In this document: positions 12,782-44,682 of the stretch, piece by piece
How positions within the stretch are numbered: the first letter of the stretch is position 1
How the letters are laid out: each line of letters starts with the position of its first letter
NCBI GenBank assembly: GCA_965204905.1
Contig: OZ242042.1
Coordinates: 898,778 to 962,777 of the forward strand
Direction of reading: 5' to 3'
DNA length: 64,000 nucleotides
Origin: Dehalococcoidia bacterium
GTDB taxonomy: Bacteria; Chloroflexota; Dehalococcoidia; Lucifugimonadales; UBA3495
Notes under the pieces: model-generated
What the model saw: only the letters and a program-made list of their open reading frames with translations
The model's database searches: none
Told to the model about the DNA's origin: nothing
Position numbers and translations under genes: made by a program

Positions 12782-12965
12782 GGCACGGCACCGTCCGGAA
12801 GATTAGCCGTGGGTCGGCTTGACCCGAGTGTATTGGGCGGTCGGTTGGGCGCGCTACTGGCTGCTGTCATCAAAAAACTTGGCCGCCCCGTTGGTCGGAG
12901 CGGCCGGTGTCGCGGTTCGTCCGCGACGCGTTAATTGTGCCAGTCGTTGGCTCGGGCACGCTACG
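12782..12965 (-). promoter_or_regulatory. Family A leader copy (UCR-A2)
   Basis: Aligns by eye to 7573-7760 and 31276-31470. Confidence 0.6.
12871..12905 (-). terminator. Intrinsic terminator in UCR-A2
   Basis: Minus-sense GGCCGCUCC-GACCAAC-GGGGCGGCC followed by a U6 tract. The single substitution gives U:G in minus sense but C:A in plus sense. Confidence 0.55.
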
Positions 12966-21141: not shown

Positions 21142-24100
21142 GGGTAAAGCGTCTGATATAAGGCCCACATGCCCATGATGTCCAATGGATGTGGTGAGCA
21201 ATCGGGTTCATCGTCAATTGACTCGACTTTGTCGTCGTAATTCATCACCGACTCCGCTACAGTCGGGTGGGCCTGCTCGTACAGGCTGACTCCCTGCAGG
21301 AGTTCCAGGATGCTGAAGCCGGATAGGCCGAAGGCATGGCCAGTTTCGTGGAGCACCAGCTCAAACGGATATCCCACCGATTGGCCTGCGGTGGCGGAAT
21401 TGTTTTCACAGTCGTTGAAGTGGATGCTCCCCGGTGCGCCGAGGAAAGCTGCTTTTTCCCAAGGGTTCAAGTCTCTCTTGTTGAACAGAATATCCACCCC
21501 ATTGCCGGGAACGTTCAACCGTACACCGGCATGCGCGTCGCTTCCGTACGCATTGGAGATGGTGCATGCGGGGGCGCTGAAAACGCAGATGCCGTGTAAC
21601 TCGTGGATGAACCCGGCGAAATGGAATCTCGAGACCGGATCGCCGTCCACCATATAGATCTCGTTCACGCTGGAATTCACCCGGGCGGTGGTGTAAGGCT
21701 CAAAATAGACCAAGATGGGTATCAACGCCAACTCCGGTGGGAGCTGCCCGTCCGGCTTGACCTCGCCAATATCGCAATCTGTGCCGATCATGGTCTCACT
21801 CGATTGGATCAAGTTGCCGGTCCCAGTCGTCCAACGGTTGAACGCCGCATTGATCAGGCGGGCCCACAATTCGGTCTCGTTACCAGTAGTATTCGGGTCG
21901 TCCTTGAACGTGTTCCGACAAATGCGATAGGTGTAGGTCCGGTCAGGCCAATGGCCAAAGAAGGGGAACGTGCCGACCGTCTGGTCCTTAGGGGGCATGC
22001 GGATAGCTGGCCAGACGTAGGCGTTCCGCCCCGCAAATACTTGGATGCCGGCGGCATCTCGATAAGTCATTTGGACCGCGTACACATCCTCCCGATCCAG
22101 AGAACTGAGTACTTGCTCCTGTCCGTCCGCGACGTTCGCCGAAACGTTTAACGGTATCCCGTAATTGTGGGGATTCCAATTTGAGACATTGGATTCATCC
22201 AATATCTTGCGGACTACTAATTTGCGTTCGGTGGCATTCGTTGGCAATGCTCCCCAAACGACGGACGCCGTGCCACGGTTGGTGGGGTTACCCGCACTGT
22301 CGCCGTTGGTCCTGGTGATGGGAGAGTCGATGACCTTCACTCTGGTTGAACCCTCCGCGTAGTTAGTGTTCAACCTCCTCGCTTGCACCAAGAACGTATC
22401 CTCGACGTCATCGATTAGATAGTCATCCAGGTTCAGGTCGTGGTAATAAGTGGTCCCGTCCTGGATAGGCGTGAACACCTCCGAAACGGTGCCGAAGGAA
22501 TTGATCTCGTAGGAGGTGGCGAAGGGCACACGCGTCCATTGAATGCGAGCCCGGCGCCCCTCCAGATCGGAGGCGATAGGTATGACTTTAAGGTTCGGAT
22601 CGTTCAGTTTGTTCAGTGTCAGTGCTTGGCTCCAATCCGTCCAGTAACCGCAGTAATCGCTGGTCGCATCCCCGCACCGACGTGCCTTCACTTGGTACGT
22701 TCCGCCTGCGTTCAGGCCGGTGAAGGAGTGCGGTGACCCGGTGCTGGCGTAAATTTGACCGTTGTTCGGCCAGGTGCCGCCGGGCAATTGCTGCCGGATC
22801 TCAACCTGGTGCTGTCCGGTTTGATTCACAGAGTTCGTCCAAGTCAATGGCGTATAGTTGAGCTTCGCTTGGAGTGGGTCAGTAGGGTGGCGAGAGAGCG
22901 AATCCAGGGTTGGCCGCGGTGGCATTCTTATCAGGGCACTCCAACTGCCACAATTGGTGTGATTGGAATTGCGGCACCGCTGTGCCCGTGCGCCGTAGTC
23001 GCCTATCGTCACGACGCCGATGTCCACGGATTGGGCGATGTTGGCGTTACTGGAGAGGGTCACATTCTTGGTGGTGATCGCACTGGCTGGCGGGCCCACG
23101 GGCACGTAATGGTGGAGCGCCACCCTATAGTAGTGGTTGGTGCTCTGGCTCCAAGTGCTGGGCTTGTAATGGAAAGTGAGGGTGCCGCTGGTGGTCCTGC
23201 TCACCACCAGGTAAAGGGCGGTGGGTGCCGGTGGTGGGGGCGCCGGTGGTGGGGGCGGTGGACGAGTTGGCGTCGGCGTATTGGTGGCCGTTGCAGGTGG
23301 CGGTGTGGTGCTACTAACAGGGACGTTGATGGTGAACCTAATGGAATGCGACAGGGAGCACCCGCCCGCCGCATTGCAGTGCTGAACTTTGGCGGTGTAA
23401 TCGCCGTCCGTCCACTGGTTGGTTCCCGTGATCACCAAGGTGGTGGTATCCAGAGCGTCGGATATGGAACTATTGGAGTAGACGGTCGTGGTGGAACCGT
23501 CCCTCTTGATCTCTATCTCGTAATGGTCGGGGTTGTCGCCCAAGATGTCGGTTCCCGCTTCCCAAGTCAGGGTGACGCTGCCCGTGCCGGAGTACGAGAC
23601 CGCATCGTCGCCGTTTCTAGGTGTGGGAGGTCGCCGTTCTTTCTGGATCAGGGCCGTCGCCAGTTTGTCCCCGCTCACAATGTTGCCCTCATGGAACGTC
23701 AATGTCACTGACGAGTAATGAACATCAAAGGCATCATCTTCGACCTTGATCCGGATGCGCGACCCGTCGGGGACGGCGAATGCTCCCCGGTCGGCCTCGT
23801 TGTCGATGTTCTTGGTGTTCAGGACGGTGCCGGAGCTGTTCAACCGCTCCACTAGGATGTCGCCCGCCAGATCCTTATTCGTTCCAGTGGCGTAGTCCAC
23901 GTCGATGTAGACCGTTCCTGTTCCGGTGGGAACGGTCCAGACGCTGGAGGTTCCGCCCAGACGGATCGGGTTGGGAGTGAAGCTGTAGACCGTTCTGGCC
24001 GCCAGCGTGGTGCCGGTCACAACGGCGCTGGGCGACCCGTAAGTGGTTGAATACGGGGCACCGTCGCCACGGGTTCGCACCTGGAACTGGTACGTGGTTT

Positions 24101-25547
24101 CCTCGGACAGGCTGGTGACCGTATAGGAGGTTGATGACGTGTACTTGAGAGACCAGGTAGTGGTGCCGCTCTCGCGGTATTCGACCCGGTAGCGGGCGGC
24201 GTCCTGGACCCCGTCCCAGGAAAGGGCTATGGAACTGCTGGTGACGGCTCCGGTCGCCAGATTAGTTGGCGCAGGCGCCAGTGCCGGGGCGGTGTATGAG
24301 ACGCTGTCCGAGTCGTAGGACGAGCACGTCGGTCCAGTAGTCTTGCAGGAACGCACGTAGAAGGTTGCTCGTATGGTTGCGCCGGCGGCGAGACTGCCAT
24401 AGGACACCAAGATTTCATCCGTCTCGTAGCACTCGTCTCCGCTGAACTTATCGCAGTCGTCCGGAGTGTCGTCCTGTATCTGCGTGACAGCGGAGGTGGT
24501 GTCGGTGCTGCACGTCCCGCCGGCAGGGCAGGTCTGGATGACGTAGTAAGTGTCGTAATAGTCCTCATCATCCGCCACGCGCTCGAACTCTGCTTTGGCG
24601 TACCCGTTGGACGTGAATTGGTCCGTCCAGAATGCGTCCACCACCGGCTTCTCCGGTGCGTCCGGCGGTGGTGTTGGCGTCGGCGCAGGTGTCGTAGGCT
24701 CCGGAGGCGTAGTGCCGTTGGATTCGACGGTCAGCGTCACCGCCGCTGAGCAGTTGTTAGTGGTGTCGGCCTCGTTCAAGACGGCGGTTACACACGCGCC
24801 GTAGTAGTAAGTGCCGTCCGAAGACGGGGCGGTGAAATTGTAGACATGGACGCTCTTCTGGAGTTGCAGGATGATGGGAACATCCTGGGTCGTGAGCAAG
24901 GTGTCGAACCGGGAGATGATCGCATTCGTCGACCGGTAGAACTTCAATGTGGTGGCGGGCGAAGGATTTCCGCCCTCGTTGTGAACCTCGACGCCGATGC
25001 GCACGTCACCGCCGGGCTCCACCTCATCAGGGATCACCAGCGGGTGCAGGACTTCCAGATCGGGGCGTTCCTCCTCCTGATCCCCAGCGGCCCTTCGCTC
25101 CGGTGGCCAAGAATCGAGACCGGAACCGTCAGCGCCTCCGACCACAACGGGCGCGGATGCGGCGATGAGCTGTCCCGCTTGCTGGGGATTCTCGCAGCGG
25201 GCCCGAACCGTGACTTCACTCACGCCGCGAGCGTTGCCGCGTATCGTCACCGTCTCGGTTCCGACGCTCGTCATGCGGCCCACGGCGATGTCCGGAGCCA
25301 GAACTTCAAGCGTTCCTGGGTCAATGTTCCAGGCGCGCCAGTGGAACGTAGCCGTCTGCCCTACGGGAATGTTCCGGGGAACGTCCACGAAGTGGATGCG
25401 GCACTCCGCTTGCTGGCCGGACTTCCCGTTGGTTACGGGTGTCGCGTCCTGACTGAGGGCGGGTTTGGTGGGCTGCCAAGCGACTAGCACAATGGCGAAG
25501 ACGACCACTACGGCCGCTAAGGCGACAAAGAGCGTTCTCAAAATCAT
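21138..25547 (-). CDS. Giant secreted protein: CARDB/Fn3-like domains with a C-terminal HExxH metalloprotease
   Basis: 1469 aa, N-terminal TM/signal segment, Pro/Thr linkers, Fn3 units (YRVEYRESGTTTW), and zinc motif VLHETGHAFGL near the C-terminus. Confidence 0.8.
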   Translation of the reverse strand: MILRTLFVALAAVVVVFAIVLVAWQPTKPALSQDATPVTNGKSGQQAECRIHFVDVPRNIPVGQTATFHWRAWNIDPGTLEVLAPDIAVGRMTSVGTETVTIRGNARGVSEVTVRARCENPQQAGQLIAASAPVVVGGADGSGLDSWPPERRAAGDQEEERPDLEVLHPLVIPDEVEPGGDVRIGVEVHNEGGNPSPATTLKFYRSTNAIISRFDTLLTTQDVPIILQLQKSVHVYNFTAPSSDGTYYYGACVTAVLNEADTTNNCSAAVTLTVESNGTTPPEPTTPAPTPTPPPDAPEKPVVDAFWTDQFTSNGYAKAEFERVADDEDYYDTYYVIQTCPAGGTCSTDTTSAVTQIQDDTPDDCDKFSGDECYETDEILVSYGSLAAGATIRATFYVRSCKTTGPTCSSYDSDSVSYTAPALAPAPTNLATGAVTSSSIALSWDGVQDAARYRVEYRESGTTTWSLKYTSSTSYTVTSLSEETTYQFQVRTRGDGAPYSTTYGSPSAVVTGTTLAARTVYSFTPNPIRLGGTSSVWTVPTGTGTVYIDVDYATGTNKDLAGDILVERLNSSGTVLNTKNIDNEADRGAFAVPDGSRIRIKVEDDAFDVHYSSVTLTFHEGNIVSGDKLATALIQKERRPPTPRNGDDAVSYSGTGSVTLTWEAGTDILGDNPDHYEIEIKRDGSTTTVYSNSSISDALDTTTLVITGTNQWTDGDYTAKVQHCNAAGGCSLSHSIRFTINVPVSSTTPPPATATNTPTPTRPPPPPPAPPPPAPTALYLVVSRTTSGTLTFHYKPSTWSQSTNHYYRVALHHYVPVGPPASAITTKNVTLSSNANIAQSVDIGVVTIGDYGARAQRCRNSNHTNCGSWSALIRMPPRPTLDSLSRHPTDPLQAKLNYTPLTWTNSVNQTGQHQVEIRQQLPGGTWPNNGQIYASTGSPHSFTGLNAGGTYQVKARRCGDATSDYCGYWTDWSQALTLNKLNDPNLKVIPIASDLEGRRARIQWTRVPFATSYEINSFGTVSEVFTPIQDGTTYYHDLNLDDYLIDDVEDTFLVQARRLNTNYAEGSTRVKVIDSPITRTNGDSAGNPTNRGTASVVWGALPTNATERKLVVRKILDESNVSNWNPHNYGIPLNVSANVADGQEQVLSSLDREDVYAVQMTYRDAAGIQVFAGRNAYVWPAIRMPPKDQTVGTFPFFGHWPDRTYTYRICRNTFKDDPNTTGNETELWARLINAAFNRWTTGTGNLIQSSETMIGTDCDIGEVKPDGQLPPELALIPILVYFEPYTTARVNSSVNEIYMVDGDPVSRFHFAGFIHELHGICVFSAPACTISNAYGSDAHAGVRLNVPGNGVDILFNKRDLNPWEKAAFLGAPGSIHFNDCENNSATAGQSVGYPFELVLHETGHAFGLSGFSILELLQGVSLYEQAHPTVAESVMNYDDKVESIDDEPDCSPHPLDIMGMWALYQTLYP

Positions 25548-26780: not shown

Positions 26781-26935
26781 GTGTCGTCCCTGTTCTTCGG
26801 TCTCATGGCACTGGCGGCAGGCGTCGGCGAGGGTGCCGTCGGGGAGTATGGTCTTCTCGTTGCCGCAGTCGCAGGTGCGCTCGAGGATCTGGAGGGCGAG
26901 GTCGAACTCGCGGGTGCGGTTGGCATCGTCGATGT
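26781..26935 (-). pseudogene. Family B fragment (B5), C-terminal zinc-ribbon part only
   Basis: Encodes ..ANRTREFDLALQILERTCDCGNEKTILPDGTLADACRQC.. and is nearly identical at DNA level to B1/B2. Confidence 0.6.
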
Positions 26936-29467: not shown

Positions 29468-30523
29468 TTAGAAGCGGAACAGGTTGATTTGATGCCTGTT
29501 CGGGACTCCTAAGAAGTCATACCAGGGCTGACGCGGCTCTTTGGCCGCGTAGTCATAGTCGCCCGCCATTAGCTCGTCGAAGTTGTCGTACGCGGTCAGG
29601 ATGGCTTGTTGTCGCTTCTGGCCGTAGGCGTCCCACACGAATGGGTTGATGTACCAGTTTTCGCTAAACAGGATGATCTCTGCTGAAACTGCGGCTTGCA
29701 GCTCCGTGCCGTTGGTTGTTGCTATGTGGCCGAAAAACCTTTCGGCCTCGCTGTTGCCCACGTAACTTGCGATTACAACGTGCTCGCCGTGCTTGGGGAT
29801 CACGGTCAACGACCAGGAACAGTTCGGCTCCCGGTTAGTCAACAGCTTTGTCTGCTCCAAAGGTAAGATTTGGCCTGTATTTCGGTCCATGGCCATGTCT
29901 GCTGAGCTGTGGGCTTGCGCCGCTGCCACAATGGGTGTCTTCGTTTTGACCATCCTGACAAGGTGCTTGATCCTGATCGCCGGTCGATAATCGTCACTCA
30001 CTGACCCGAGTCCCTGCCCTAATCTATTCGCAAGGTTGATCATCGCCCGCAGTCTGTAAGAGGGACGAATGTGAGGTGGCATTGCTGGGTGTACAAATTT
30101 CGAGGTGGGTCCAGTCATCCTTAACTGCTTCCATAGTTCCAGCAAAGCTGCCCTGTACATCATCAGGTCGAGTATTCGGTTGTCCTTGATGTCCGCGTCA
30201 GGTCTTTCGATCTCTTTAAACAGGTCTTCGTGGTGCCTGCAAACGAACGGGCCTGTTGATGCCCTGTTGATTCCTATCTTTTCGGCCCGGGCAACTTGGC
30301 TGAATTCGCCTGAAGCGTCTGTCTCTGGTCTACCTATCAATTGCGTGACGTGGTTTGCGACTTGGATGCTCCGCAAGATGTTCCTTGGAACCGTGTGCGA
30401 TCGGATTGGCTTCCCTTGGCAGTCAGGCGAGAAAAGACACCGGTTAGGGTCGTTTTGCCAGATATCCTGCATGCTTTGCCAGAACTCGCGCTGGAGGTGG
30501 GTGTCTTTTCCTTTCTGCTGCAT
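29468..30523 (-). CDS. Hypothetical 351-aa protein downstream of Cas4-like A3
   Basis: Long ORF in a visibly AT-richer segment, 101 nt downstream of A3. Conserved-looking PIRSHTVPRNIL and FVCRHHEDLFKEIE. No family recognised. Confidence 0.6.
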   Translation of the reverse strand: MQQKGKDTHLQREFWQSMQDIWQNDPNRCLFSPDCQGKPIRSHTVPRNILRSIQVANHVTQLIGRPETDASGEFSQVARAEKIGINRASTGPFVCRHHEDLFKEIERPDADIKDNRILDLMMYRAALLELWKQLRMTGPTSKFVHPAMPPHIRPSYRLRAMINLANRLGQGLGSVSDDYRPAIRIKHLVRMVKTKTPIVAAAQAHSSADMAMDRNTGQILPLEQTKLLTNREPNCSWSLTVIPKHGEHVVIASYVGNSEAERFFGHIATTNGTELQAAVSAEIILFSENWYINPFVWDAYGQKRQQAILTAYDNFDELMAGDYDYAAKEPRQPWYDFLGVPNRHQINLFRF

Positions 30524-30624: not shown

Positions 30625-31275
30625 CTAGAAGTCGTCGGTGGCGCAGTCCTCGGGCTCGTACTCGTCTTCCAAGCGTTCCGGGCAGTCTGCGGCCGTGATG
30701 TCGCAGAAGCAGCACTCCTGTCGGCTGAGCACTCGTCTTGCCGGTTCGTCGGCTGACAGGCGGCGGATCAGCGCGCCCAGGTTCTGGATGAACTGCTCGT
30801 CGACGGCCTCTGCCGAAACGCGGACCGTGTGATCGCGGTAGGTGACCTGCCCCCTGAGTTTGGCGTTTCGATACCGCTGGAGTGCCTTGGGGATGGCGTA
30901 CAGGTAGATCATGACCTGGACGGTGTGGCTTGGGCTTTGGTGGCCGGTCTTGGCGTCGACGATGACGGCGTGGTCCTCCCTGCGGGCGATGATGTCAGGT
31001 CGGCCGGCGAGTGTCGCGGTCTTGCCGTGGAGTTCAAACCGGTTTTGGGCCTCGATGTCGACGTCGTGGCCGCCGACGGTCCAGTTGGCGATGCGCTGGT
31101 TGAGGAGCGCGCTGTGGTCGAGCATCGACTTGGCTCGGTCGAAGTCGGACGGGACGCGTTCCCAGCTTTGATGGTGGGCCTTGAACCAGATGGCCCACTC
31201 GCAGGAGTTCTCGCCGGTGAGTAGCCTGGGCAGCCAGGTTGCCCAGATGTAGGGGAAATCTCGTTGCTCGGCCAC
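30625..31275 (-). CDS. Cas4-like PD-(D/E)XK nuclease (family A, copy A3)
   Basis: GTG start. ENSCEW, GRPDII..AVIVDAKTG, QVMIYLY and CCFCDITAADC. Confidence 0.8.
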   Translation of the reverse strand: MAEQRDFPYIWATWLPRLLTGENSCEWAIWFKAHHQSWERVPSDFDRAKSMLDHSALLNQRIANWTVGGHDVDIEAQNRFELHGKTATLAGRPDIIARREDHAVIVDAKTGHQSPSHTVQVMIYLYAIPKALQRYRNAKLRGQVTYRDHTVRVSAEAVDEQFIQNLGALIRRLSADEPARRVLSRQECCFCDITAADCPERLEDEYEPEDCATDDF

Positions 31276-31470
31276 GGCACGGCGCCGTCCGGAGGATTAG
31301 CCGTGGGTCAGCTTGACCTGAGTGTATTGGGCGGTTTGGGTGCGCTACGGGCTGCTGTCATCAAAAACTTGGCCGCCCCGTTGGTCAGGGCGGCCGGTGT
31401 CGCGGTTGGTCCGTGACGTGTCCATTGTGTCAGGTGTGGGCTCGGGTTCGCCAAGGCTTGGTGTCATCAA
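31276..31470 (-). promoter_or_regulatory. Family A leader copy (UCR-A3)
   Basis: Aligns by eye to the other UCR-A copies. Confidence 0.6.
31361..31395 (-). terminator. Intrinsic terminator in UCR-A3
   Basis: Minus-sense GGCCGCCCU-GACCAAC-GGGGCGGCC followed by AAGUUUUUGAUGA. The closing pair is U:G in minus sense. Confidence 0.55.
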
Positions 31471-32537: not shown

Positions 32538-32990
32538 TCACATCTCGGCCGTTCGTTTCTGTGATGCTTGTGTGATTTTGCGCCGGGCCGGCCGTCCTTG
32601 GTCCTCGAGGTCCTGACACTGTCTGCAGGATTCGGCGAGGGTGCCGTCGGGGAGTATGGTCTTCTCGTTCCCGCAGTCGCAGGTTCGCTCCAGGATCTGG
32701 AGGGCGAGGTCGAACTCCCGGGTGCGGTTGGCGTCGGCGGCGCAGTGTTCGCGCTTGAGTTGGTCGAATTTGATAGCGAACCGGGCGTAGGCGGTTTGAC
32801 GCTTGTTGGCTTTGATGTCGGCGCGGCCTTTGGAGACCCACTTGCCGAGGGTGCTGGGGGACATGGAGACGCCGTACTCGCTGGCGTGTCTGACGACGTC
32901 GTGGTAGGTGCCGTCGGTATCGGGGAGGGCGCGCAGGACGGCGGCGATGTTCGGAGCGGTGAATTGTGCGGTGTTGTTGAAGTTGGTCAT
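32538..32990 (-). CDS. Small HTH + zinc-ribbon protein (family B, copy B1)
   Basis: 150 aa. HTH-like YHDVVRHASEYGVSMSPSTLGKWVSKGR, then CDCGNEK...CRQC. Confidence 0.7.
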   Translation of the reverse strand: MTNFNNTAQFTAPNIAAVLRALPDTDGTYHDVVRHASEYGVSMSPSTLGKWVSKGRADIKANKRQTAYARFAIKFDQLKREHCAADANRTREFDLALQILERTCDCGNEKTILPDGTLAESCRQCQDLEDQGRPARRKITQASQKRTAEM

Positions 32991-33038
32991 GGTGTCCTCC
33001 TGGTGGCTCTCGGTTTCTCCTCCAGGTGTGGGACTTGT

Positions 33039-33126
33039 GCTTGGACGGGCTCAGTTTGGGCTGATTGGCCGGGCCGGCCCGTCGGGTAGGATAACGGCGG
33101 TTGGGGCGAAACGGTATTGTCTTGGG
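33039..33126 (+). repeat. C-type structured repeat, 5' of B1
   Basis: GCTTGGACGGGCTCAGTTTGGG...GGGTAGGATAACGG...GCGAAACGGTATTGTCTTGGG. Confidence 0.7.
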
Positions 33127-33511
33127 TTGCTGTGCAGGGCCTTTTCAAAGTTGTGCGATTGAAGTCTATCCGCTCGTCCTGAGCTGCCGTAGGTCCGCCA
33201 GTGGCGGGTCGAAGGACGCGCTCGTGGTTCGACGGGCTCCCGCCTCAGGCGGACGTTCCGCACCATGAGCGAGCACAGGGGACTTTGGAGCGGCCCTGGT
33301 TGCTGTGGCGGGCTGATTATCAGGGCACCGGGTAGCGGAACGGGCGACCCATCAGAAACACGCCAAATCCGGCCCGTAGCCGAATTTTTGCGCCGCCCTC
33401 GAATAGTATTGTGGAATCGAGGAGAGGCCGTCACGGGGCGTCTGGGAGGTGTCCTCGCCCCTTCATTTTTCGGGGTTGTGCGTCCGTTCTACCCGCGTGG
33501 GGTGAGAGTGT

Positions 33512-33558
33512 GCGAGACATGGGCGGAGCGAGGTCACACCGCTCCGCCCATGTCTCGC
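33512..33558. other. Perfect 19-bp inverted repeat
   Basis: GCGAGACATGGGCGGAGCG-aggtcacac-CGCTCCGCCCATGTCTCGC, about 140 nt downstream of the 33699 stop. Confidence 0.6.
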
Positions 33559-33698
33559 AGCTACACCGGTTGGATTGATATATGTTTTGCGTCTTGGTTG
33601 TCTCCGGGTCTTCGTGGTGCTTGGCGTTATCGTGCCGGCGAAGAGGCTCTGGCATACGATGCCGGAGCCTGTGCTGAAGGTCTGCCGGTTCGTCTGAT

Positions 33699-35288
33699 TT
33701 AGCGAAAGCTCTCGAGCATTGCTCTTATCTGGGCCTTGAGGTCCAGTATCCGCCCGGCCGTCCGTTCACTCGGATTTGCTTCCTCGATCTTGTTCAGCAC
33801 TTCCAGGGCTGTTCCCCATTCTATTGTGATCCCTGATCTTTCGCTCCAGTTCATCAGCAAGTCGGTAGCTAGGTCAGGGTACGAGGACACCGCGCTTGAG
33901 CGTTTGAGCTCGATGAAAAGTGGAATGTCCGGTCCGTTCCATGGGGTCGCTTTTGCTAGTGTCACGGCTTCGGCGAAAGGTTCGGTCAGGTGGGGCACCC
34001 ACCCAACCATGTGGGTGCCCTCCGCCGGGCTGATCGGTTTGGGAGAACCCCTGTTGCGGTCTTGCCAATATTCCCTGACCCAGCGCTCCCACCAGTCTTT
34101 CTGCTGTTCGACGTCGGCTTCCCGGAGCCTGTTTTTCACGGCCTCGGCGACGAGCTCAGCCGTTTCCTTGCTGCTGGTTTTGACGGTTTCCTTGAGCCAC
34201 TCCCTTGGTTCCGCGGCGTAATGGCAGAGTAGCTTCGTGTATGCGTCGGCGAAGAGGCGTTTGGCACTGAGTTCGTTGTTCGGTTGCTCGACGAGTTCAC
34301 TGAATTTGTCCTGGAAAATATTCCCCAGCACTTGGGCCACTTGTGGGGTGATATTCTGTGCTTCGACTAGCCCACCCCATGCGGCTCTCTCTCTGTTCCC
34401 ACCGCTAGTGAACATCGGTTGGATGATTTCTTCGGCCCACGGCTGGTCAACGTGCCACAGAAACCCGGCCTGTCCCGCGAGGATTGCCGCGCCCAGGTTT
34501 CCTTTGAGAGAGTCATCGGCAACGATCTGGTTAAGACCCCTCATGCTGGTGGGACTGAATCTTTCTCTCTGCGATGTCCGTGTCCTGACGGCTGTCGATT
34601 CTAGCCAGAACGTGGTGAGGTATCCCATCTGGTAGAAGTTGAACGCTGCTTCGTGCCACCCTTGAACCGGAATATCTTCGCCGCTTCTGAGGTGGTCCCA
34701 TAGCGGCAGCGCCACCTGCTCTGCTTCGTCGATGAGATTGATGGCGTAGCTTTTGCCTCCGTTTCTCGTCAAAGCGTGAAGGCTTTCGGCTATGTCCCCG
34801 GCGTGGTGCGTGTAGACGTCTTGCATGGAGAACCATTCCAGAACTTTCCGGTATTGCTCCTCTTGCAGGTCGGCCACACGCCATCCCGATATGATGTCTT
34901 TCCATACAGGCTCCGACCACTGCCGTTGCTTGGCCAATTCTCGGGCTACGCCGTCCCCCCATTGGGGGTTTTGGCGCGTCGTCTCCTGAACGCTCCACAG
35001 GCCTGGTATGAGTTCCTCGGGTTGCGCCTGGCGGTTGCTCTCCATGAGCCAACTGACGAGTTGCTCTGCCGCCGTTTCCTTCAGGGAATCCGGTGTGAAA
35101 GGGTCGCCGCTGATGACCACGGGTTCACTTATCATCAGCCCCGGCTGTAGCGGGTCTGTCCATTCCCAACTGTGTGCTTCCTCCATCGGCGCGATCTCAT
35201 CCCTGAGTATCTGGCACTCCGGGGCGGTTTCTTGCAATGCCTTCAGCAGGTTGTACCGGCGGCGCTCGGTTGCGTTCTGAGCGGTCAT
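33699..35288 (-). CDS. Large all-helical Trp-rich partner of the SIR2 protein (DUF4020-like, from memory)
   Basis: 529 aa with its own RBS GAGGAAGAG, 23 nt after the SIR2 stop. C-terminal WWERWVREYWQDRNRG...MVGWVPHL. Confidence 0.7.
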   Translation of the reverse strand: MTAQNATERRRYNLLKALQETAPECQILRDEIAPMEEAHSWEWTDPLQPGLMISEPVVISGDPFTPDSLKETAAEQLVSWLMESNRQAQPEELIPGLWSVQETTRQNPQWGDGVARELAKQRQWSEPVWKDIISGWRVADLQEEQYRKVLEWFSMQDVYTHHAGDIAESLHALTRNGGKSYAINLIDEAEQVALPLWDHLRSGEDIPVQGWHEAAFNFYQMGYLTTFWLESTAVRTRTSQRERFSPTSMRGLNQIVADDSLKGNLGAAILAGQAGFLWHVDQPWAEEIIQPMFTSGGNRERAAWGGLVEAQNITPQVAQVLGNIFQDKFSELVEQPNNELSAKRLFADAYTKLLCHYAAEPREWLKETVKTSSKETAELVAEAVKNRLREADVEQQKDWWERWVREYWQDRNRGSPKPISPAEGTHMVGWVPHLTEPFAEAVTLAKATPWNGPDIPLFIELKRSSAVSSYPDLATDLLMNWSERSGITIEWGTALEVLNKIEEANPSERTAGRILDLKAQIRAMLESFR

Positions 35289-35311
35289 AGCGTCTCTTCC
35301 TCGTTGGAGTC

Positions 35312-37201
35312 CTATCGGAGGGCCTCGACTACGCGTCGTCGATAGTCATCGCTGAGATCCTTGAATTCCTCAATGAGCAGTTGGTCCGTCTCAAGATTTC
35401 TCCCGCTGTCCATGGGCACGGCCTTCCTAAATAGCCACTCGACTTTTTCGTGTGCCCTTTGGTCCGGTCTCATGCGGACTGAATGGACGGCGAGCCTTCT
35501 TGCCAGCGGGGACTGGGAGGCTATCAGGCGGTCCAGCCATGATTCCAGCAGTTCCGGTTCATTCTGTCCCATCCACTCCAAGCAGTCTCTGGCGATGTTC
35601 ACCATCTGGTCGATGCCCGCTTCTCGGCGGTTGCCTTGGGAATCCCCTATCATGTGACGGCCTGAAGAGTCTGTGTCGCGTTCGGCGGTGGCCAGACCCC
35701 ATTGCTCCAGGGTTCTATGTCGGTTTTCGATATGCCTCACCGCGTGGTCCAGGGTTATGGCCGCGACCGTTCCCATGTGCTGGTTCACGTTGGCCCAGGC
35801 CGCCGACAATATCCAGGCCTCTCCCAAGGTCGTCAGCTCGATTTGGTTCCCTGCGGGTCGCCTTGGTTGCGCTCTGATGACAGGCCGGAACAATTCGTCG
35901 AAGATGTTCGCGGCTTCTTGGTATAGTTCGCTCTGCACACCTAGTTCAGCCAGCCGGTATAGGCCGTCCGATTTGCGGGCATCCTGGTCTGCTGGGGTTG
36001 CTGAGAGCAGGTACGATACCCATCGGCTTATCGTGCTGGACGTTCTGGTATGTCCATCATCGAGGAGCCGGTGGGTGATGTCCCACCAGATTTGCGGATG
36101 GAGTTTTTGTCCGGCTTGCGTGATCGTGGCTATGGCTTCGTCTGGGTCGTGAGCAGCAAGCAGTCGCGCCAACCACGTCAGAAGCGTGCCATTTTCCGTG
36201 ATGGGCGCGTCGTCAAAAGCCCCCGCGACGTACTGCTTGTCTATGCACCACTCGACCCATCGGAGGCTCTGTGCGTTCGCTGTGAATGCCGGCGTGAGTT
36301 CCGGGTCCTGCAATGCTCGGTCGATGATGTTCTGCGATCCTGTGTCAAGGGGAGGATTCGGTTGGCTCGCTATTTGCGCGATCATCTGGTGCCATGTTGA
36401 GGAAGACCTTCTCTGGTACTCCGCCAGCTCGGCGATGGCTTCGGCTGCCTCGTCATGGTTTTGGTTTTCCCCTAGTTGGTAAGCGATGGGTTCTATACCT
36501 AGAGAATGCCAACTTTGATTGCCAACCGTCAGTTCGTGCGTGAGAATGAACCTCCGCGCTGGTTCGTTGCTGGTCGGCATGGCCCGCGCCAGATAGCGCA
36601 CTATCGGGTCTTGGTGGCTGTAGCCGACGAAGAGGACGTGCTGTGTCCTGAAAAGTCCTTGGAGGAACTCCAGTGCCCAGCGTTCGTCCAAGTATGCTCT
36701 GCCTATGTCTGAGTCCGTTAGGACCATGTCTTGAGGCTGGTCAATTACTCCGTGCAGGTCCACTATTCCGGTGAATCGTCCGCAGGGCGGAAGTGCCGGC
36801 GCAGCGTAAACTTTCCCGGTTTGTTGGATTTCCTTTCCTGCGCTCGTCGCCTCGAACAATTGGTCGAAGTTGGTGGTTACGAGTTTTGGCGTCGCCCCCC
36901 TTGGTCGAATGTCCAACAGGTCTCGATGAAGTTGGTTTGGATGGGCGCCCGTGAGTTGCTCAACGATGTAGGCTCTTATGTCGCGTCCCTCCATTTCAAG
37001 CCTACCGAGGAACTGATCGTCATTTTCCTCTTCGGTTCGGTTCACTTGGAAGTGCTCCTGCACTTGTTTTAGCAGAAGAGGAAAACTGGGCAGGTTCGAT
37101 GGGCTTGGGATCGACACGCCAGCTCCGGCGAAGACCACCAAGTTATCGTCGCGGAGTGCGTTCATCAGCCTATCGTTGAATTCTACGTTCCCGAGTTTCA
37201 T
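35312..37201 (-). CDS. SIR2_2-family (sirtuin-like NADase-type) protein with a helical C-terminal extension
   Basis: LVVFAGAGVSIPS (GAGxS), VTTNFDQLFE and IVDLHGV. About 350 aa of helical repeats follow. Confidence 0.85.
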   Translation of the reverse strand: MKLGNVEFNDRLMNALRDDNLVVFAGAGVSIPSPSNLPSFPLLLKQVQEHFQVNRTEEENDDQFLGRLEMEGRDIRAYIVEQLTGAHPNQLHRDLLDIRPRGATPKLVTTNFDQLFEATSAGKEIQQTGKVYAAPALPPCGRFTGIVDLHGVIDQPQDMVLTDSDIGRAYLDERWALEFLQGLFRTQHVLFVGYSHQDPIVRYLARAMPTSNEPARRFILTHELTVGNQSWHSLGIEPIAYQLGENQNHDEAAEAIAELAEYQRRSSSTWHQMIAQIASQPNPPLDTGSQNIIDRALQDPELTPAFTANAQSLRWVEWCIDKQYVAGAFDDAPITENGTLLTWLARLLAAHDPDEAIATITQAGQKLHPQIWWDITHRLLDDGHTRTSSTISRWVSYLLSATPADQDARKSDGLYRLAELGVQSELYQEAANIFDELFRPVIRAQPRRPAGNQIELTTLGEAWILSAAWANVNQHMGTVAAITLDHAVRHIENRHRTLEQWGLATAERDTDSSGRHMIGDSQGNRREAGIDQMVNIARDCLEWMGQNEPELLESWLDRLIASQSPLARRLAVHSVRMRPDQRAHEKVEWLFRKAVPMDSGRNLETDQLLIEEFKDLSDDYRRRVVEALR

Positions 37202-37852
37202 GAGCGTTCGCGCTTCAATTGGTCCACTGACTTAGGACACGGACCGGACTGCAGTCGCCGGTGAATCGGACAACGGGAGTGCCTTGTTTCGTGGCTTCCC
37301 GTTCGTCACCGAGCATGGTGGCCGCGACCGTTTTGACGCCGCGTCGCGAGCACGAATCATTGAGCCTGGGGCGTCTCGAGAACGCCTCGGGCTTATCCGG
37401 CGAAGCGGCTTGAAGCAAGCCCAACGCGGTGGCGTCTTGTTCCACGCTGGACCGGGACGGTGATGCCCAGCCAGTTGCCGGCAATCTTGTTCCACTCCAT
37501 TCGCGTGTCCGTTGGGACTATCCCAACGTTCCGTCCTTGGGGCAGGAGCCTGACGGGCGGAGAACCGTGTAGCGGCGGTTTGGACGGCCGGCTATGATGT
37601 TCGCAAACAGACCGTCGAAACGCGATTGTGGATGCCAATGTTACATCGGGCTAAGGTTTCGGTAAAGTAGCGCGGCGTCGGCCCATGATTTCGGTACCCC
37701 GCGGAGTCGATACCAACCCGTTTGGCTACCCTGCAGCCACAGTCATCTGACAGCGGCACGATCATGGCGATTTACCAAGTTATCTCCAGTCAGGACGGTT
37801 GCGGAATTCGTCGGTATATTCGTCAATATCCGCCCCTGATCCCAAGGATTTG

Positions 37853-37868
37853 GAGTAACGAAATTTCC
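37853..37868 (+). repeat. Junction motif copy M1 (GAGTAACGAAATTTCC)
   Basis: One mismatch to the GAGTAGCGAAATTTCC consensus. It sits where the B gene is missing next to an orphan C repeat. Confidence 0.6.
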
Positions 37869-37917
37869 CCGGTGGCCACCAGGCGGTCTTCGTTGTCTCC
37901 TCCAGGTGGGGCTTGTG

Positions 37918-38005
37918 CTCAGACGGGCTCAGTTGGGCTGCATGGCCGTACCGGCCCGGGGCGGGTAGGATAAAGGGGTTTCAGGCGAAACGGTAGTGTC
38001 TGGGG
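37918..38005 (+). repeat. C-type structured repeat (orphan, B gene lost)
   Basis: CTCAGACGGGCTCAGTTGGG...GGGTAGGATAAAGG...GCGAAACGGTAGTGTCTGGGG. Confidence 0.7.
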
Positions 38006-38160
38006 TTGCGGAGGCGGGCTGTTTATCGGGGTGCCGGGTATTGGAACGGGCGGCTCGAGTGGGCCGCCCTATCGTGTGAGTGGGTTTGGTTGGTGTGATC
38101 TCGGGACGGGGACGGTGTTGGGTTCGGAGCCTTACGACACGGGTATCTTGGTGGCGTTGG

Positions 38161-41901: not shown

Positions 41902-42047
41902 CGGTCCCGGCCTTATCTGATGAAACGAGGGGAGAGTACGCCCGCCCCTGGAAGCCTGTCAACAATCATCCCCCCGCCTTCAGGTTCGATTTCACTCTTC
42001 CCCAGCTTATGCGAGCATTATTCATGGTCATACAGAACCACGGTAAG

Positions 42048-42380
42048 CCACGGCGCGGCACCGTCCGATGGAGTAGCCGTGGGTCGGCCTGTCTCGAGTC
42101 TATGGGGCGGTGCGTTGGGGTCGCGCTATGGGCGGCTGTCATCAAAAACTTGGCCGCCCCGTTGGTCAGGGCGGCCGGTGTCGCGGTTGGTCCGCGACGG
42201 GTCCATTGTGTCAGTTGTGGGCTCAGGTCCGCTACGGCTTGGTGTCATCAGATTGCCGCTCTGATGCCGCTGTCTTCGCTATCGAGGGACGCGCGCCCAG
42301 ACGGGCTGTGCTGGCTTGTCGGGTCTGCCGTGTCCCATCGTTGGGTAACCGCGTTTTGGCCGAAATGGGAGTGTGTGGGG
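42048..42380 (-). promoter_or_regulatory. Family A leader copy (UCR-A4) with no Cas4-like gene, about 150 nt upstream of the amidase; includes a C-type repeat at 42296-42380
   Basis: Aligns with UCR-A1/A3 over its whole length and even retains the CCAC (GTG start) remnant at 42048. Confidence 0.6.
42141..42176 (-). terminator. Intrinsic terminator in UCR-A4
   Basis: Same hairpin and U5 tract as UCR-A3. Confidence 0.55.
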
Positions 42381-42571
42381 TCGTCGTGTCACGTCGGAGG
42401 GTTGCCTGCCGGGTAGCAATAGGTGCGGCTCATAACTGGCCGCCCTTGGGTGTCAATCAGGGAGATTTCGTTACTCCGATCCCAGATCGTTCTCGTAAGG
42501 GACTGTCCAGCAATCTGACAGGTTTCGTAACCGGCCGGGCGGTTTCTCAGGAACACGCTCTGGTTGCATGC

Positions 42572-42943
42572 TCACTGGCCAGTCTCGTCGCTGATCACCT
42601 GGCGCAGTTGGACGATGCCTTGTGTCGTTGCCCGCCGTGCGGTCCTGAGTTCTGTTGGGCTCAGGTTGGCTTGGTAGAAGTGGGAATGCAGTCTTTCGGC
42701 GGCTGCCCAGTCCGAAACCCACCGTTCTGAACCCTGCAGGTCGCGCAGGTTGGTTGCAGTGTTGCGGTACGTTCCGTGGCTCAATGCCGGCCATCCTCTG
42801 AGTTCTGACACGGCCAGCGATAGTTGGGCATAGGCCCCCCACAGTAGTTCGGCGGCAATCATGGTGTTGCCGCCGGGGTTGAATTCTTGGTTGGAGCGTT
42901 CCATGAACTCCATGCTGGCGTCGAGCCGCTGCTGGGTGTTCAT
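42572..42943 (-). CDS. Hypothetical helical protein, PaREP1/HEPN-like pattern
   Basis: AAELLWGAYAQLSLAVSELRGWPALSH. 4-nt overlap with the upstream gene. Confidence 0.4.
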   Translation of the reverse strand: MNTQQRLDASMEFMERSNQEFNPGGNTMIAAELLWGAYAQLSLAVSELRGWPALSHGTYRNTATNLRDLQGSERWVSDWAAAERLHSHFYQANLSPTELRTARRATTQGIVQLRQVISDETGQ

Positions 42944-43632
42944 GCGGTTGCCCGCCTCTCGGCGTTCAGGTGGTTCGCCAGCTGGATGGCTCGCCTGGCG
43001 AAATTCCTGGCGTCTTCGTCGGAGCCGTTTTCGCTGTCGTATCCCATGCTGAACTTTACCAAGTCGGGCTGGGCCATGGCGGCGCTGAACGCGCTGGTCA
43101 GGTTATGGCCTAACTCTGATGAGTCGGCTAAGGCTTGGTGAACATCCCAGGTGATTTCTGGGTTCCGCCCAGTTGCCAGTAGTTCGACAGCTTCGTGGAC
43201 TCCGTCTTCGTCGTGGGACCAACCGTTTCGGGCGGCGATGGCGGCTATGGAACATATCACGGCGCTGGCCAGGCTTTCCGTGGCTTGCTGGTGTTGCATA
43301 TCCAGAAAATACAGGTCGGCTCGACTGAAGTAGTGAGTGGCTCGCTCGGTGGCGACTTCGTCTATGGTGTCGCTGAACTTATCTGCGACTGGAGCGTAGT
43401 CACGTTGGCTGTGCTGGTGCATTTGGGGGTGTATGGCGCCCTTCGTTGCTACGGCCGCCATGTGGGCGGCGTTGAGGGCGTCGGTGATCGGACGGCGGCT
43501 CTTGCTCACATCAACCCTTGCCAGCAGGTTATTCCGCAGTCTGTCGGCTTCGGCGGCGTTGACGGTGCCGACTTCCTTCTCGTAGGCGGCGATGGCGACG
43601 CGTTCCGCCAGGTCCAAGATGGTTTCATTCAT
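42940..43632 (-). CDS. Hypothetical helical protein, second PaREP1/HEPN-like pattern
   Basis: ATESLASAVICSIAAIAARNGWSHDEDGVH. Confidence 0.4.
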   Translation of the reverse strand: MNETILDLAERVAIAAYEKEVGTVNAAEADRLRNNLLARVDVSKSRRPITDALNAAHMAAVATKGAIHPQMHQHSQRDYAPVADKFSDTIDEVATERATHYFSRADLYFLDMQHQQATESLASAVICSIAAIAARNGWSHDEDGVHEAVELLATGRNPEITWDVHQALADSSELGHNLTSAFSAAMAQPDLVKFSMGYDSENGSDEDARNFARRAIQLANHLNAERRATA

Positions 43633-44103: not shown

Positions 44104-44523
44104 CTACGGCGATCGCCGGGGCGGTCGTCCTTGGTCTTCAAGGTCCTGGCACTGGCGGCAGGTGTCGGCGAGGGTGCCGTCGGGGAGTATGGTCTTCTCG
44201 TTGCCGCAGTCGCAGGTTCGCTCCAGGATCTGGAGAGCGAGGTCGAACTCCCGGGTGCGGTTGTCGGCGGCGGCGCAGTGTTCGCGCTTGAGTTTGTCGT
44301 ACTTCAGGGCGAACCGGGCGTAGGCGGTTTGACGCTTGTTGGCCTTGATGTCGGAGCGGCCTTTGGAGACCCACTTGCCGAGGGTGGTGGGGGACAGGGC
44401 GACGCCGTACTCGCTGACCTGTCTGATGACGTCGTGGTAGGTGCCGTCGGTATCGGGGAGGGCGCGCAGGACGGCGGCGATGTTCGGAGCGGTGAATCGT
44501 GCGGTCTTGTTATCGTTGGCCAT
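44104..44523 (-). CDS. Small HTH + zinc-ribbon protein (family B, copy B2)
   Basis: 139 aa. TLGKWVSKGRSDIKANKRQTAYARFA and CDCGNEK..CRQC. Confidence 0.7.
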   Translation of the reverse strand: MANDNKTARFTAPNIAAVLRALPDTDGTYHDVIRQVSEYGVALSPTTLGKWVSKGRSDIKANKRQTAYARFALKYDKLKREHCAAADNRTREFDLALQILERTCDCGNEKTILPDGTLADTCRQCQDLEDQGRPPRRSP

Positions 44524-44570
44524 GGTGTCCTCCTGGCAGTCTTCGTTCTCTCCTCCAGGTGGGACTTGTG

Positions 44571-44656
44571 CTCAGCCGGGCTGGTTTGGCCTATTTGGCC
44601 GTACGGGCCCGTGGGGTAGGATAACGGTGTTTGGGGCGAAATGGTAGCGTCTCGGG
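44571..44656 (+). repeat. C-type structured repeat, 5' of B2
   Basis: CTCAGCCGGGCTGGTTTGG...GGGTAGGATAACGG...GCGAAATGGTAGCGTCTCGGG. Confidence 0.7.
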
Positions 44657-44666
44657 TTGCTTACCA

Positions 44667-44682
44667 GGCGATTTCGCTACTC
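44667..44682 (-). repeat. Junction motif copy M3
   Basis: Plus strand GGCGATTTCGCTACTC, reverse complement GAGTAGCGAAATCGCC. Confidence 0.6.

What the first reader, a model, noticed from the sequence alone, without database searches (positions are those of the whole stretch)
33699..37201. SIR2_2 protein with a separately encoded 529-aa helical partner: candidate split sirtuin-type defence system
Seen in sequence: the 629-aa protein has the SIR2_2 NAD-binding signatures (GAGVS, TTNFDQLFE, DLHGV) followed by about 350 aa of helical repeats. After 23 nt a 529-aa Trp-rich helical protein starts with its own GAGGAAGAG RBS. Established knowledge: prokaryotic SIR2-domain proteins (ThsA, DSR1/DSR2, SIR2-HerA, SIR2-pAgo partners) act as NAD-depleting anti-phage effectors. 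Inference: the partner resembles, from memory, the DUF4020 region that is usually fused to SIR2_2. This would then be a two-gene version of a normally single large protein, with the sensor part split off. The combined length of about 1150 aa is in the range of DSR-type proteins.
Basis: partly seen in the sequence, partly recalled or inferred. Interest (0 to 1): 0.7.

Follow-up and report, generated by a model that had tools for sequence, protein, structure and literature searches.

The report
Two-gene split Dsr1 sirtuin defence system
These two adjacent genes are a naturally split version of the known single-protein anti-phage NAD-degrading enzyme Dsr1, cut inside its helical sensor, and the same split has been kept by selection in many Chloroflexota genomes.

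Summary
There are two minus-strand ORFs, 35312-37201 (629 aa) and 33699-35288 (529 aa), 23 nt apart, with GAGGAAGAG before the second ATG. The first has a SIR2_2 domain with catalytic N111 and H150. Against a profile of ~1170-aa fused relatives, the 629-aa protein covers positions 1-634 and the 529-aa protein covers 647-1171, so together they tile one protein. That fused family aligns over ~1000 columns with curated Dsr1 from E. coli and Pantoea. The split is not a pseudogene. The pair is adjacent in 18 further loci, usually with overlapping stop and start codons. Both genes have dN/dS of 0.15-0.31, and they diverge in step down to 33-35% identity. Breaks cluster at two hot spots (profile ~640 and ~585), both in inter-helix loops just before a predicted flexible hinge. 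Split forms make up about one fifth of the classifiable representatives. The likely mechanism is a heterodimer that rebuilds the Dsr1 sensor, binds a phage protein (the capsid protein in E. coli Dsr1) and switches on NAD+ hydrolysis. This is a new variant of a known kind, of moderate interest.

The parts
35312..37201 (-). Gene 1: 629-aa SIR2 effector fused to the N-terminal half of the Dsr1-type helical sensor
   Evidence: ORF; SIR2_2 E = 2.4e-20; PADLOC Dsr1 E = 1.3e-35 and NCBIfam Dsr1 NF041818 151.7 bits, both over the N-terminal part only; covers positions 1-634 of the fused-family profile, 607.6 bits
36452..37201 (-). SIR2 NADase core (about residues 1-250) with GAGVS (26-30), catalytic N111 (TTNFD) and H150 (DLHG)
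   Evidence: Alignment to ThsA 6lhx puts N111 on N112 and H150 on H152; N111 in 20 of 21 and H150 in 22 of 22 aligned clade members; the SIR2 core of the fused relative's model matches the DSR2 SIR2 domain and KomC at TM 0.65-0.73
35315..36451 (-). Helical region of gene 1 (about residues 251-629): N-terminal lobe of the sensor
   Evidence: Aligns to residues 251-650 of fused relative P0068, which are modelled as helices plus one beta-hairpin at pLDDT around 90; lies inside the stretch (profile 479-1147) that aligns with canonical Dsr1
35289..35311 (-). 23-nt intergenic spacer with Shine-Dalgarno-like GAGGAAGAG (35294-35302)
   Evidence: In relatives L001, L002, L005, L008 and L011 the genes overlap by 4 nt (ATGA). 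The window has a CAG-to-TAG change that ends gene 1 nine codons early
33699..35288 (-). Gene 2: 529-aa all-helical partner, the C-terminal half of the Dsr1-type sensor
   Evidence: ORF; PADLOC Dsr1 profile 789-1223/1248, E = 1.4e-8; covers positions 647-1171 of the fused-family profile, 344 bits; AF2 model pLDDT 86.3, pTM 0.76
35178..35273 (-). Partner residues 6-37: conserved N-terminal helix pair, proposed docking element onto gene 1's last helices
   Evidence: Helices 6-21 and 26-37 in the model; 12 invariant residues within positions 1-41; correspond to P0068 helices 662-680 and 685-697, on the N-terminal side of the low-confidence linker. The docking role is an inference
35109..35165 (-). 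Partner residues 42-60: predicted disordered linker (candidate hinge between the lobes)
   Evidence: pLDDT below 50 in the partner model; the matching segment of the fused model, within 698-748, is also low-confidence
33705..35093 (-). Partner residues 66-528: alpha-solenoid (C-terminal lobe), including the sub-threshold DUF4020 match at residues 358-446
   Evidence: Model; only generic ARM/HEAT structural matches, TM at most 0.43; Pfam
37202..37871 (-). Conserved non-coding leader of the module; core about 37331-37681
   Evidence: The module shared with L005 and L006 ends at 37871; the core is about 74-75% identical to L002, L011 and L012/13 and carries 1-2-nt indels; suggestive covariation. 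Its role is unknown

Best explanation
This is an intact two-gene anti-phage system that arose by fission of a Dsr1-family defence sirtuin. Gene 1 encodes the SIR2 NADase fused to the N-terminal lobe of the helical sensor. Gene 2 encodes the rest: a helix pair, a flexible linker and the C-terminal lobe. The two genes are co-transcribed and, in most relatives, translationally coupled. Their products are proposed to assemble into a heterodimer, with the partner's N-terminal helix pair docking onto the last helices of gene 1, so that the bilobed Dsr1 sensor is rebuilt. By analogy with E. coli Dsr1 and the homologous Avs7 sensor, the two lobes close around a phage structural protein, most likely the major capsid protein. 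This relieves inhibition of the SIR2 domain, which hydrolyses NAD+ and blocks phage replication. Shown here: the homology, the tiling of the fused profile, intact catalytic residues, co-conservation, purifying selection and recurrent break points. Inferred: the physical complex, the trigger, and NADase activation.
For: (1) Tiling. The fused-family profile has 1172 positions; gene 1 covers 1-634 and gene 2 covers 647-1171. The same holds for 13 other pairs, whose lengths sum to 1145-1210 aa. (2) Fused relatives are the majority: 81 full-length plus 23 junction-spanning fragments among the 150 best representatives. BLASTP of the partner against residues ~650-1075 of the fused proteins gives E = 1e-43 to 1e-28. 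(3) The fused family is homologous to curated Dsr1 over nearly the whole length. hmmsearch gives 380 and 330 bits, and hhalign gives 100% probability over about 1000 columns, with one stretch (profile 479-1147) running through the split point. The best PADLOC and NCBIfam hits are Dsr1. (4) The catalytic N111 and H150 align to ThsA N112 and H152 and are conserved. (5) The pair is adjacent in L001-L006, L008-L014 and L017-L020, among different neighbouring genes, usually with 1-11-nt stop/start overlaps. (6) dN/dS is 0.15-0.31 for both genes, and their identities track each other: 87/90, 84/82, 75/76, 63/60 and 35/33 %. (7) Break points cluster at profile ~640 and ~585 over a flat background. 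Both map to inter-helix loops of the model, just before the low-confidence linker. (8) From the literature: DSR1 depletes NAD+ on infection (10.1101/2021.12.14.472415). EcDsr1 is triggered by the phage major capsid protein through a bilobed sensor shared with Avs7, whose lobes move about 30 A on binding and whose C-lobe autoinhibits the effector (PMC12803255 and PMC13581612).
Against: The family is a distant branch of Dsr1 (about 22% identity to curated Dsr1; NCBIfam score 151.7 against a cut-off of 1400), so the trigger may differ from that of EcDsr1. The partner-family profile alone aligns convincingly with Pantoea Dsr1 (hhalign 93%) but not with E. coli Dsr1 (2.4%). One locus, L007, keeps the partner but has lost all except the last ~16 codons of the SIR2 gene, so the partner can persist alone, at least for a while. 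The partner's DUF4020 match is below Pfam's threshold. No activity has been measured.
Confidence: 0.78

Rival explanations
1. The partner acts mainly as a trans-acting inhibitor (antitoxin-like) of a constitutively active SIR2 protein. The phage trigger titrates or removes the partner, rather than the two lobes clamping the trigger together.
For: In apo SeAvs7 the C-lobe holds the effector inactive. The only decayed locus seen, L007, kept the partner and lost the SIR2 gene, the order expected if SIR2 alone is harmful. The tight translational coupling would keep the stoichiometry fixed.
Against: Gene 1 retains about 380 aa of sensor N-lobe under purifying selection, which a pure toxin would not need. 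In the homologous Avs7 sensor both lobes contact the capsid protein. The two models are not mutually exclusive.
Confidence: 0.15
2. It is a decaying pseudogene: a Dsr1-like gene recently broken by a frameshift or nonsense mutation, or an apparent break caused by an assembly error.
For: The gene-1 stop in the window is a CAG-to-TAG change relative to L005, and most family members are single fused proteins.
Against: That change only trims 9 poorly conserved tail residues. The split itself is present in every member of a clade that has diverged to 33-35% identity. Both halves have dN/dS of 0.15-0.31. The partner has its own ATG and ribosome-binding site, conserved as an ATGA overlap. The split is seen in many independent assemblies.
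Confidence: 0.02
3. The two genes are functionally unrelated neighbours: a housekeeping sirtuin-like enzyme next to an unrelated helical repeat protein.
For: The partner has no above-threshold Pfam, NCBIfam or PHROG family, and its fold matches only generic ARM/HEAT repeats.
Against: The partner is homologous to the C-terminal ~520 aa of proteins whose N-terminal ~640 aa are homologous to gene 1. It also matches the C-terminal part of PADLOC's Dsr1 profile. The pair stays adjacent while the neighbouring genes change.
Confidence: 0.01

Closest known systems
Dsr1 (defence-associated sirtuin 1; Gao et al. 2020, Garb et al. 2022; NCBIfam NF041818; PADLOC Dsr1)
   Same: N-terminal SIR2_2 NADase domain with the catalytic Asn and His. 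This is followed by a long helical sensor that is colinear with curated E. coli and Pantoea Dsr1 over about 1000 aligned columns, as shown through the fused relatives. Total length is about 1160 aa, against 1263-1279 aa. It occurs among mobile and defence genes.
   Different: It is encoded as two polypeptides (629 + 529 aa), cut inside the sensor. It is only about 22% identical to curated Dsr1 and falls far below the NCBIfam equivalog cut-off. It is found in Chloroflexota (Dehalococcoidia/SAR202) rather than Enterobacteria or Bacillus. Its trigger and phenotype are untested.
Avs7 (antiviral STAND with a TPR sensor homologous to that of Dsr1; PMC13581612)
   Same: According to the paper, the Dsr1 sensor is homologous to the bilobed Avs7 sensor, which envelops a capsid-protein monomer and moves its two lobes on binding. 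This system's two sensor halves correspond to such lobes.
   Different: There is no STAND NTPase module, and the effector is SIR2 rather than Cap4 or another domain. Homology to Avs7 itself was not tested here; it rests on the paper.
DSR2 (defence-associated sirtuin 2)
   Same: SIR2 domain plus an alpha-solenoid sensor. DSR2 chains are the best whole-chain structural matches of the fused relative's model (E about 1e-10), and the SIR2 core matches at TM 0.65-0.69.
   Different: The whole-chain TM score is only 0.21-0.25. No PADLOC Dsr2 profile was hit. DSR2 is a single protein that senses the tail tube protein.
Two-gene SIR2 systems (Thoeris ThsA/ThsB, SIR2-HerA, SPARSA SIR2-APAZ/pAgo)
   Same: An NAD-degrading SIR2 effector is encoded next to a separate partner gene.
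   Different: In those systems the partner belongs to an unrelated family (TIR, HerA ATPase, Argonaute). Here the partner is the missing half of the effector protein's own sensor. ThsA profiles match only the SIR2 domain, and there is no SLOG domain and no ThsB.

Membership tests
Dsr1 | N-terminal SIR2 (SIR2_2) domain with the catalytic Asn and His | tested here: met
   Pfam SIR2_2 73.5 bits. N111 and H150 align to ThsA N112 and H152 and are conserved in the clade.
Dsr1 | Dsr1 profiles are the best-scoring defence-family models | tested here: met
   PADLOC: gene 1 has Dsr1 as its top hit at 1.3e-35, and gene 2 has Dsr1 as its only hit at 1.4e-8, matching the C-terminal part of the same profile. 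NCBIfam: Dsr1 is the top hit for gene 1.
Dsr1 | Score above the curated NCBIfam equivalog cut-off (NF041818, 1400 bits) | tested here: not met
   Gene 1 scores 151.7 bits over profile positions 12-353 only, and gene 2 has no hit. This is therefore a distant, split relative, not an equivalog.
Dsr1 | C-terminal helical sensor colinear with that of curated Dsr1 | tested here: met
   The fused-family profile aligns with Pantoea and E. coli Dsr1: profile stretches 479-1147 and 443-1133 match residues 584-1255 and 540-1227, and hhalign gives 100% probability. Genes 1 and 2 tile that profile. The partner profile alone against Pantoea Dsr1 821-1269 gives hhalign 93%; against E. coli Dsr1 it is not significant.
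Dsr1 | Single polypeptide of about 1200-1280 aa (a one-gene system) | tested here: not met
   There are two ORFs of 629 and 529 aa, and the split is conserved.
Dsr1 | NAD+ depletion on phage infection, with the major capsid protein as trigger | not testable with these tools
   Known for BsDSR1 and EcDsr1 from the literature. This requires experiments.
DUF4020 (PF13212) | Score above Pfam's gathering threshold (22.7 bits) | tested here: not met
   20.4 bits, E = 4.6e-4, residues 358-446. Precomputed hits list PF13212 for several orthologues and give clean hits for the L003 and L004 partners.
DSR2 | Match to a DSR2 profile and the DSR2 fold (SIR2-MID-CTD) | tested here: not met
   No PADLOC Dsr2 hit. 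Whole-chain TM of the fused relative's model is 0.21-0.25.
Thoeris ThsA | SIR2 plus a SLOG/STALD ligand-binding domain, with a neighbouring ThsB (TIR) gene | tested here: not met
   ThsA profiles and PDB chains match only residues ~7-215, the SIR2 part. No TIR gene was found among the neighbouring genes scanned.

The most novel reading that the evidence does not exclude
Fission of the Dsr1 receptor at its inter-lobe hinge may be a recurrent, selected design rather than an accident. It arose at least three times, at two hot spots. It would turn a one-chain pattern-recognition receptor into a two-component one, whose sensor half can be dosed, exchanged or lost independently. In the window's sub-clade it may additionally be controlled by a ~350-nt structured leader RNA acting as a third component.
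Probability: 0.2. Interest if true: 0.7.

Novelty: new variant of a known kind. Interest (0 to 1): 0.45.

Why it matters
Dsr1 is catalogued and searched for as a one-gene system. About one in five of the classifiable representatives of this Dsr1-like branch are split in two. Single-gene models with coverage thresholds would probably miss or mislabel them (an inference); public annotation seen here calls one such SIR2 half simply "SIR2 family protein". The natural break points mark where the receptor tolerates being cut: inter-helix loops just before the predicted hinge between the two sensor lobes. That gives ready-made constructs for testing how lobe closure around a phage protein switches on the NADase, and whether the C-terminal lobe works as an inhibitor, a co-sensor or both. 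It also extends Dsr1-type immunity to marine and subsurface Chloroflexota (SAR202/Dehalococcoidia), whose phage defence is little studied.

Tried and rejected
(1) Pseudogene or assembly artefact: rejected by clade-wide conservation, dN/dS and the conserved ATGA overlap. (2) A specific solved structure for the partner: phmmer against PDB sequences found nothing, and Foldseek gave only generic ARM/HEAT solenoids. The PDB copy returned no Dsr1 or Avs7 structure. (3) tblastn of the partner against plasmid records: no match. (4) PHROGs and NCBIfam scans of the partner: no family. (5) Literature: no paper in the library mentions DUF4020. [quoted passage not shown] (6) Leader RNA: there is no Rfam family. 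The RNAalifold covariation term is +1.54, which is unsupportive, while pair counting is suggestive. Two motif scans of JGI metagenomes gave zero hits and then eight chance hits, with no extended homology and no SIR2 pair. A covariance model was not built, because the alignment exceeds 400 columns and calibration would be too slow. (7) Contact analysis of the fused model, to test docking of the helix pair, was not possible because coordinates are not exposed. (8) Promoter and terminator consensus scans around the operon gave nothing above the shuffled expectation. (9) The trees are rough NJ trees with long branches, so the figure of 15 architecture changes is an upper bound. Only the three large split clades are taken as solid.
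Full report
OBSERVATION. The window carries two minus-strand ORFs, 35312..37201 (629 aa) and 33699..35288 (529 aa). They are separated by 23 nt, with minus-strand sequence GACTCCAACGAGGAAGAGACGCT. GAGGAAGAG ends 5 nt before the second ATG. The partner has 24 Trp, or 4.5%. Pfam finds SIR2_2 in protein 1 (E = 2.4e-20). In protein 2 it finds only a sub-threshold DUF4020 match, 20.4 bits against a cut-off of 22.7.

WHAT IT IS. PADLOC's Dsr1 profile PDLC04167 (1248 positions) is hit by protein 1 at positions 13-305 (E = 1.3e-35) and by protein 2 at positions 789-1223 (E = 1.4e-8). NCBIfam's Dsr1 model is the top hit for protein 1, at 151.7 bits over positions 12-353 and far below its equivalog cut-off of 1400.

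Homologues of the partner found by word-indexed search are all standalone proteins of about 529 aa, at 55-92% identity. Homologues of protein 1 at 33-37% identity range from 580 to 1094 aa. In the long ones, residues ~650-1075 are homologous to the partner starting from its first residues (BLASTP E = 1e-43 to 1e-28).

An exhaustive profile search of 1.84 billion representatives found 1287 relatives of the partner. Of the best 150, 81 are full-length fused proteins of about 1130-1250 aa, 23 are N-truncated fragments that read through the junction, and about 25 are standalone partner-type proteins.

Against an HMM of 69 fused relatives (1172 positions), protein 1 covers positions 1-634 (607.6 bits) and protein 2 covers 647-1171 (344 bits). 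The two genes therefore tile one fused protein, with a 12-position gap.

RELATION TO DSR1. I took curated Dsr1 genes from plasmid records: Pantoea WP_323276008.1 (1279 aa) and E. coli WP_053264524.1 (1263 aa), both annotated 'anti-phage defense-associated sirtuin Dsr1'. They align with the fused-family profile at 380 and 330 bits. One stretch covers the SIR2 domain (profile 7-296). A second stretch (479-1147 and 443-1133) runs through the split point. hhalign gives 100% probability over about 1000 columns. The partner-family profile alone maps colinearly to Pantoea Dsr1 821-1269 (hhalign 93%, E = 3e-7), but it is not significant against the E. coli protein. So this is a distant branch of the Dsr1 family (about 22% identity), not DSR2 or ThsA. 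ThsA profiles and structures match only the SIR2 domain.

THE ENZYME IS INTACT. N111 and H150 align with the catalytic N112 and H152 of ThsA in 6lhx. They are conserved in the split clade, N in 20 of 21 and H in 22 of 22 aligned sequences, and they are invariant in the fused relatives.

THE SPLIT IS REAL AND SELECTED. The pair is adjacent in L001-L006, L008-L014 and L017-L020, among unrelated neighbouring genes. The genes usually overlap by 1-11 nt; ATGA is the common form in the window's clade. The window's 23-nt gap comes from a CAG-to-TAG change that removes nine poorly conserved tail residues. dN/dS against five orthologous pairs is 0.15-0.31 for both genes. Their amino-acid identities track each other at 87/90, 84/82, 75/76, 63/60 and 35/33 %. 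The closest named carriers are Dehalococcoidia and SAR202-cluster MAGs.

One exception was found. L007 keeps an intact partner, but only the last ~16 codons of the SIR2 gene remain.

BREAK POINTS. In fused-profile coordinates the window clade, L003, L004 and L009 break at about 634-651. A second class, L017-L020 (582 + 599 aa, Chloroflexota), breaks at 582|587. Across all retrieved proteins, partner N-termini pile up at 640-649 (25) and 580-589 (6). SIR2-protein C-termini pile up at 630-649 (35) and 580-589 (10). The background from fragments is flat at 1-2 per bin.

On an NJ tree of the SIR2 + N-lobe region rooted with curated Dsr1, parsimony makes the root fused. It gives three large split clades: 26 sequences including the window, 9 including L003, and 9 of class II. 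It also gives several singletons, for 15 changes in all, which is an upper bound given the quality of the tree.

STRUCTURE. The partner's AF2 model (pLDDT 86.3, pTM 0.76) has a helix pair (6-37), a disordered segment (42-60) and a continuous alpha-solenoid (66-528). It matches only generic ARM/HEAT proteins in the PDB, with TM at most 0.43 and no hit at E <= 0.001.

The model of fused relative P0068 (pLDDT 89.7) has a SIR2 core (1-245), a helical region (251-650), helices 662-680 and 685-697, a low-confidence linker (698-748) and a second solenoid (749-1094). The end of protein 1 maps to P0068 residue 649. Partner residue 3 maps to residue 662. The partner's helix pair and disordered segment map to 665-696 and 700-720. 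The class-I break therefore lies in the loop 651-661, two helices before the flexible linker. The class-II break lies three helices earlier, in the loop at about 599-603.

The fused model's best structural matches are DSR2 chains (E about 1e-10). The whole-chain TM score is 0.21-0.25, but the SIR2 core alone matches at 0.65-0.73.

MECHANISM. From the literature: DSR1 is a single-protein system that depletes NAD+ on infection. EcDsr1 is triggered by the phage major capsid protein, through a bilobed sensor homologous to that of Avs7. In the Avs7 structure the two lobes envelop a capsid monomer and move about 30 A towards each other, and the C-lobe autoinhibits the effector in the apo state.

My inference is as follows. 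The two proteins form a heterodimer in which the partner's N-terminal helix pair completes the N-lobe of protein 1. The disordered segment is the hinge. Trigger binding between the lobes activates NAD+ hydrolysis by SIR2. A variant of this model has the partner acting mainly as a trans-inhibitor that is released by the trigger. It fits the L007 decay pattern and cannot be excluded. The complex, the trigger and the activity were not tested.

NOVELTY. No paper in the library mentions DUF4020. The only trace of split Dsr1/Avs7-sensor proteins is one methods sentence. The system is a new variant of a known kind. It is useful for annotation and as a natural experiment on the receptor's hinge, but it is not conceptually surprising, because gene fission and fusion are common among defence genes.

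SURROUNDINGS. The unit shared with L005 and L006 is window 33695-37871: the two genes plus a ~670-nt leader. The leader core (about 37331-37681) is 74-75% identical in L002, L011 and L012/13. By comparison, synonymous sites of the two coding genes differ by about 0.46-0.49 between the window and L002. The leader also carries 1-2-nt indels.

A predicted structure of 89 pairs has 12 pairs with compensatory changes, against 4.8 +/- 1.8 in shuffles (0 of 500) and 1-4 in slid controls. However, RNAalifold's covariation term is unsupportive, there is no Rfam match, and no further copies were found. With only six sequences this remains a lead.

The wider region is rich in IS5-like transposases and repeated small genes.

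Noticed in passing
window 37331-37681 (-), within the leader 37202-37871: A ~350-nt conserved non-coding leader lies upstream of the SIR2 gene and is shared by six loci. It has 1-2-nt indels, so it is not coding. A predicted structure has 12 compensatory pairs against 4.8 in shuffles. There is no Rfam family. It could be a structured 5' UTR or a regulatory RNA.
   Followed up: partly
window 33511-33559: A perfect 21-bp GC-rich hairpin (-51.6 kcal/mol in a 91-nt context) lies about 140 nt downstream of the partner's stop codon, with no U-tract after it. It is outside the module conserved with L005 and L006. It may be a terminator or a recombination site.
   Followed up: partly
window 32991-33145, 37871-38024, 44524-44675; ORFs 32538-32990 (-) and about 44114-44413: A ~155-nt repeat occurs three times. 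Two copies form the 5' region of a duplicated 150-aa ORF (92% identical over 300 nt) that has no family match. The third copy abuts the upstream edge of the SIR2 module exactly. Diverged copies of the 150-aa gene lie near 50133-50442, 26785-26934 and 13703-13845. The same gene lies upstream of the SIR2 pair in L002 and L005.
   Followed up: partly
window 30625-31275 (-) and 29468-30523 (-): A Cas4-like PD-(D/E)XK nuclease (Pfam PDDEXK_1 and Cas_Cas4; PADLOC Cas4) sits next to a 351-aa ORF with no family match. Sequence related to the nuclease region recurs at about 5404-5916, 6977-7689 and 12642-12903. No CRISPR array or other cas gene was examined.
   Followed up: no
window 31271-31469 and 42047-42250; inverted repeat 37852-37880 / 42449-42477: There is a direct repeat of about 200 nt (82-90% identity), with copies 10.8 kb apart bracketing the region that holds the SIR2 pair. 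A 29-nt inverted repeat has one arm at the module's upstream edge. These may be recombination scars in a variable region.
   Followed up: no
window 10530-11876 (-), 52204-53853 (-), 56364-57923 (-): Three IS5-like DDE transposase genes (DUF772 + DDE_Tnp_1 + DDE_Tnp_1_6). Related transposases also flank the pair in L002, L005, L011 and L012.
   Followed up: no
window 16490-25547 (-): Three consecutive large genes (1134, 436 and 1469 aa) carry LRR, fibronectin-III, CARDB and beta-propeller repeats. They are probably surface or secreted proteins.
   Followed up: no
L007 5927-7587 (SAR202 cluster bacterium bin87, MPNC01000006.1): An orphan partner: an intact 528-aa orthologue (78% identity) with only the last ~16 codons of the SIR2 gene left upstream.
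   Followed up: partly
L017-L020 5001-8545: A second class of split Dsr1-like pairs (582 + 599 aa, break at profile 582|587) in Chloroflexota. The SIR2 protein of L018-L020 (P0130) was seen on 19 contigs. The flanking genes are conserved among the loci shown, including a BrnA antitoxin gene (with BrnT in L019) just upstream. In L017 an Apyc1-like metallo-beta-lactamase gene lies just downstream.
   Followed up: partly
window 42572-42943 (-) and 42940-43632 (-): A PaREP1-family small protein (Pfam 25.6 bits, just above the cut-off) overlaps by 4 nt the end of a 230-aa ORF with no family match. This may be a two-gene module of unknown function.
   Followed up: no
window 8003-9178 (-): An HTH (Xre-type) + Peptidase_M78 (IrrE-like) fusion protein, a type often found in mobile elements and prophage-like regions.
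   Followed up: no
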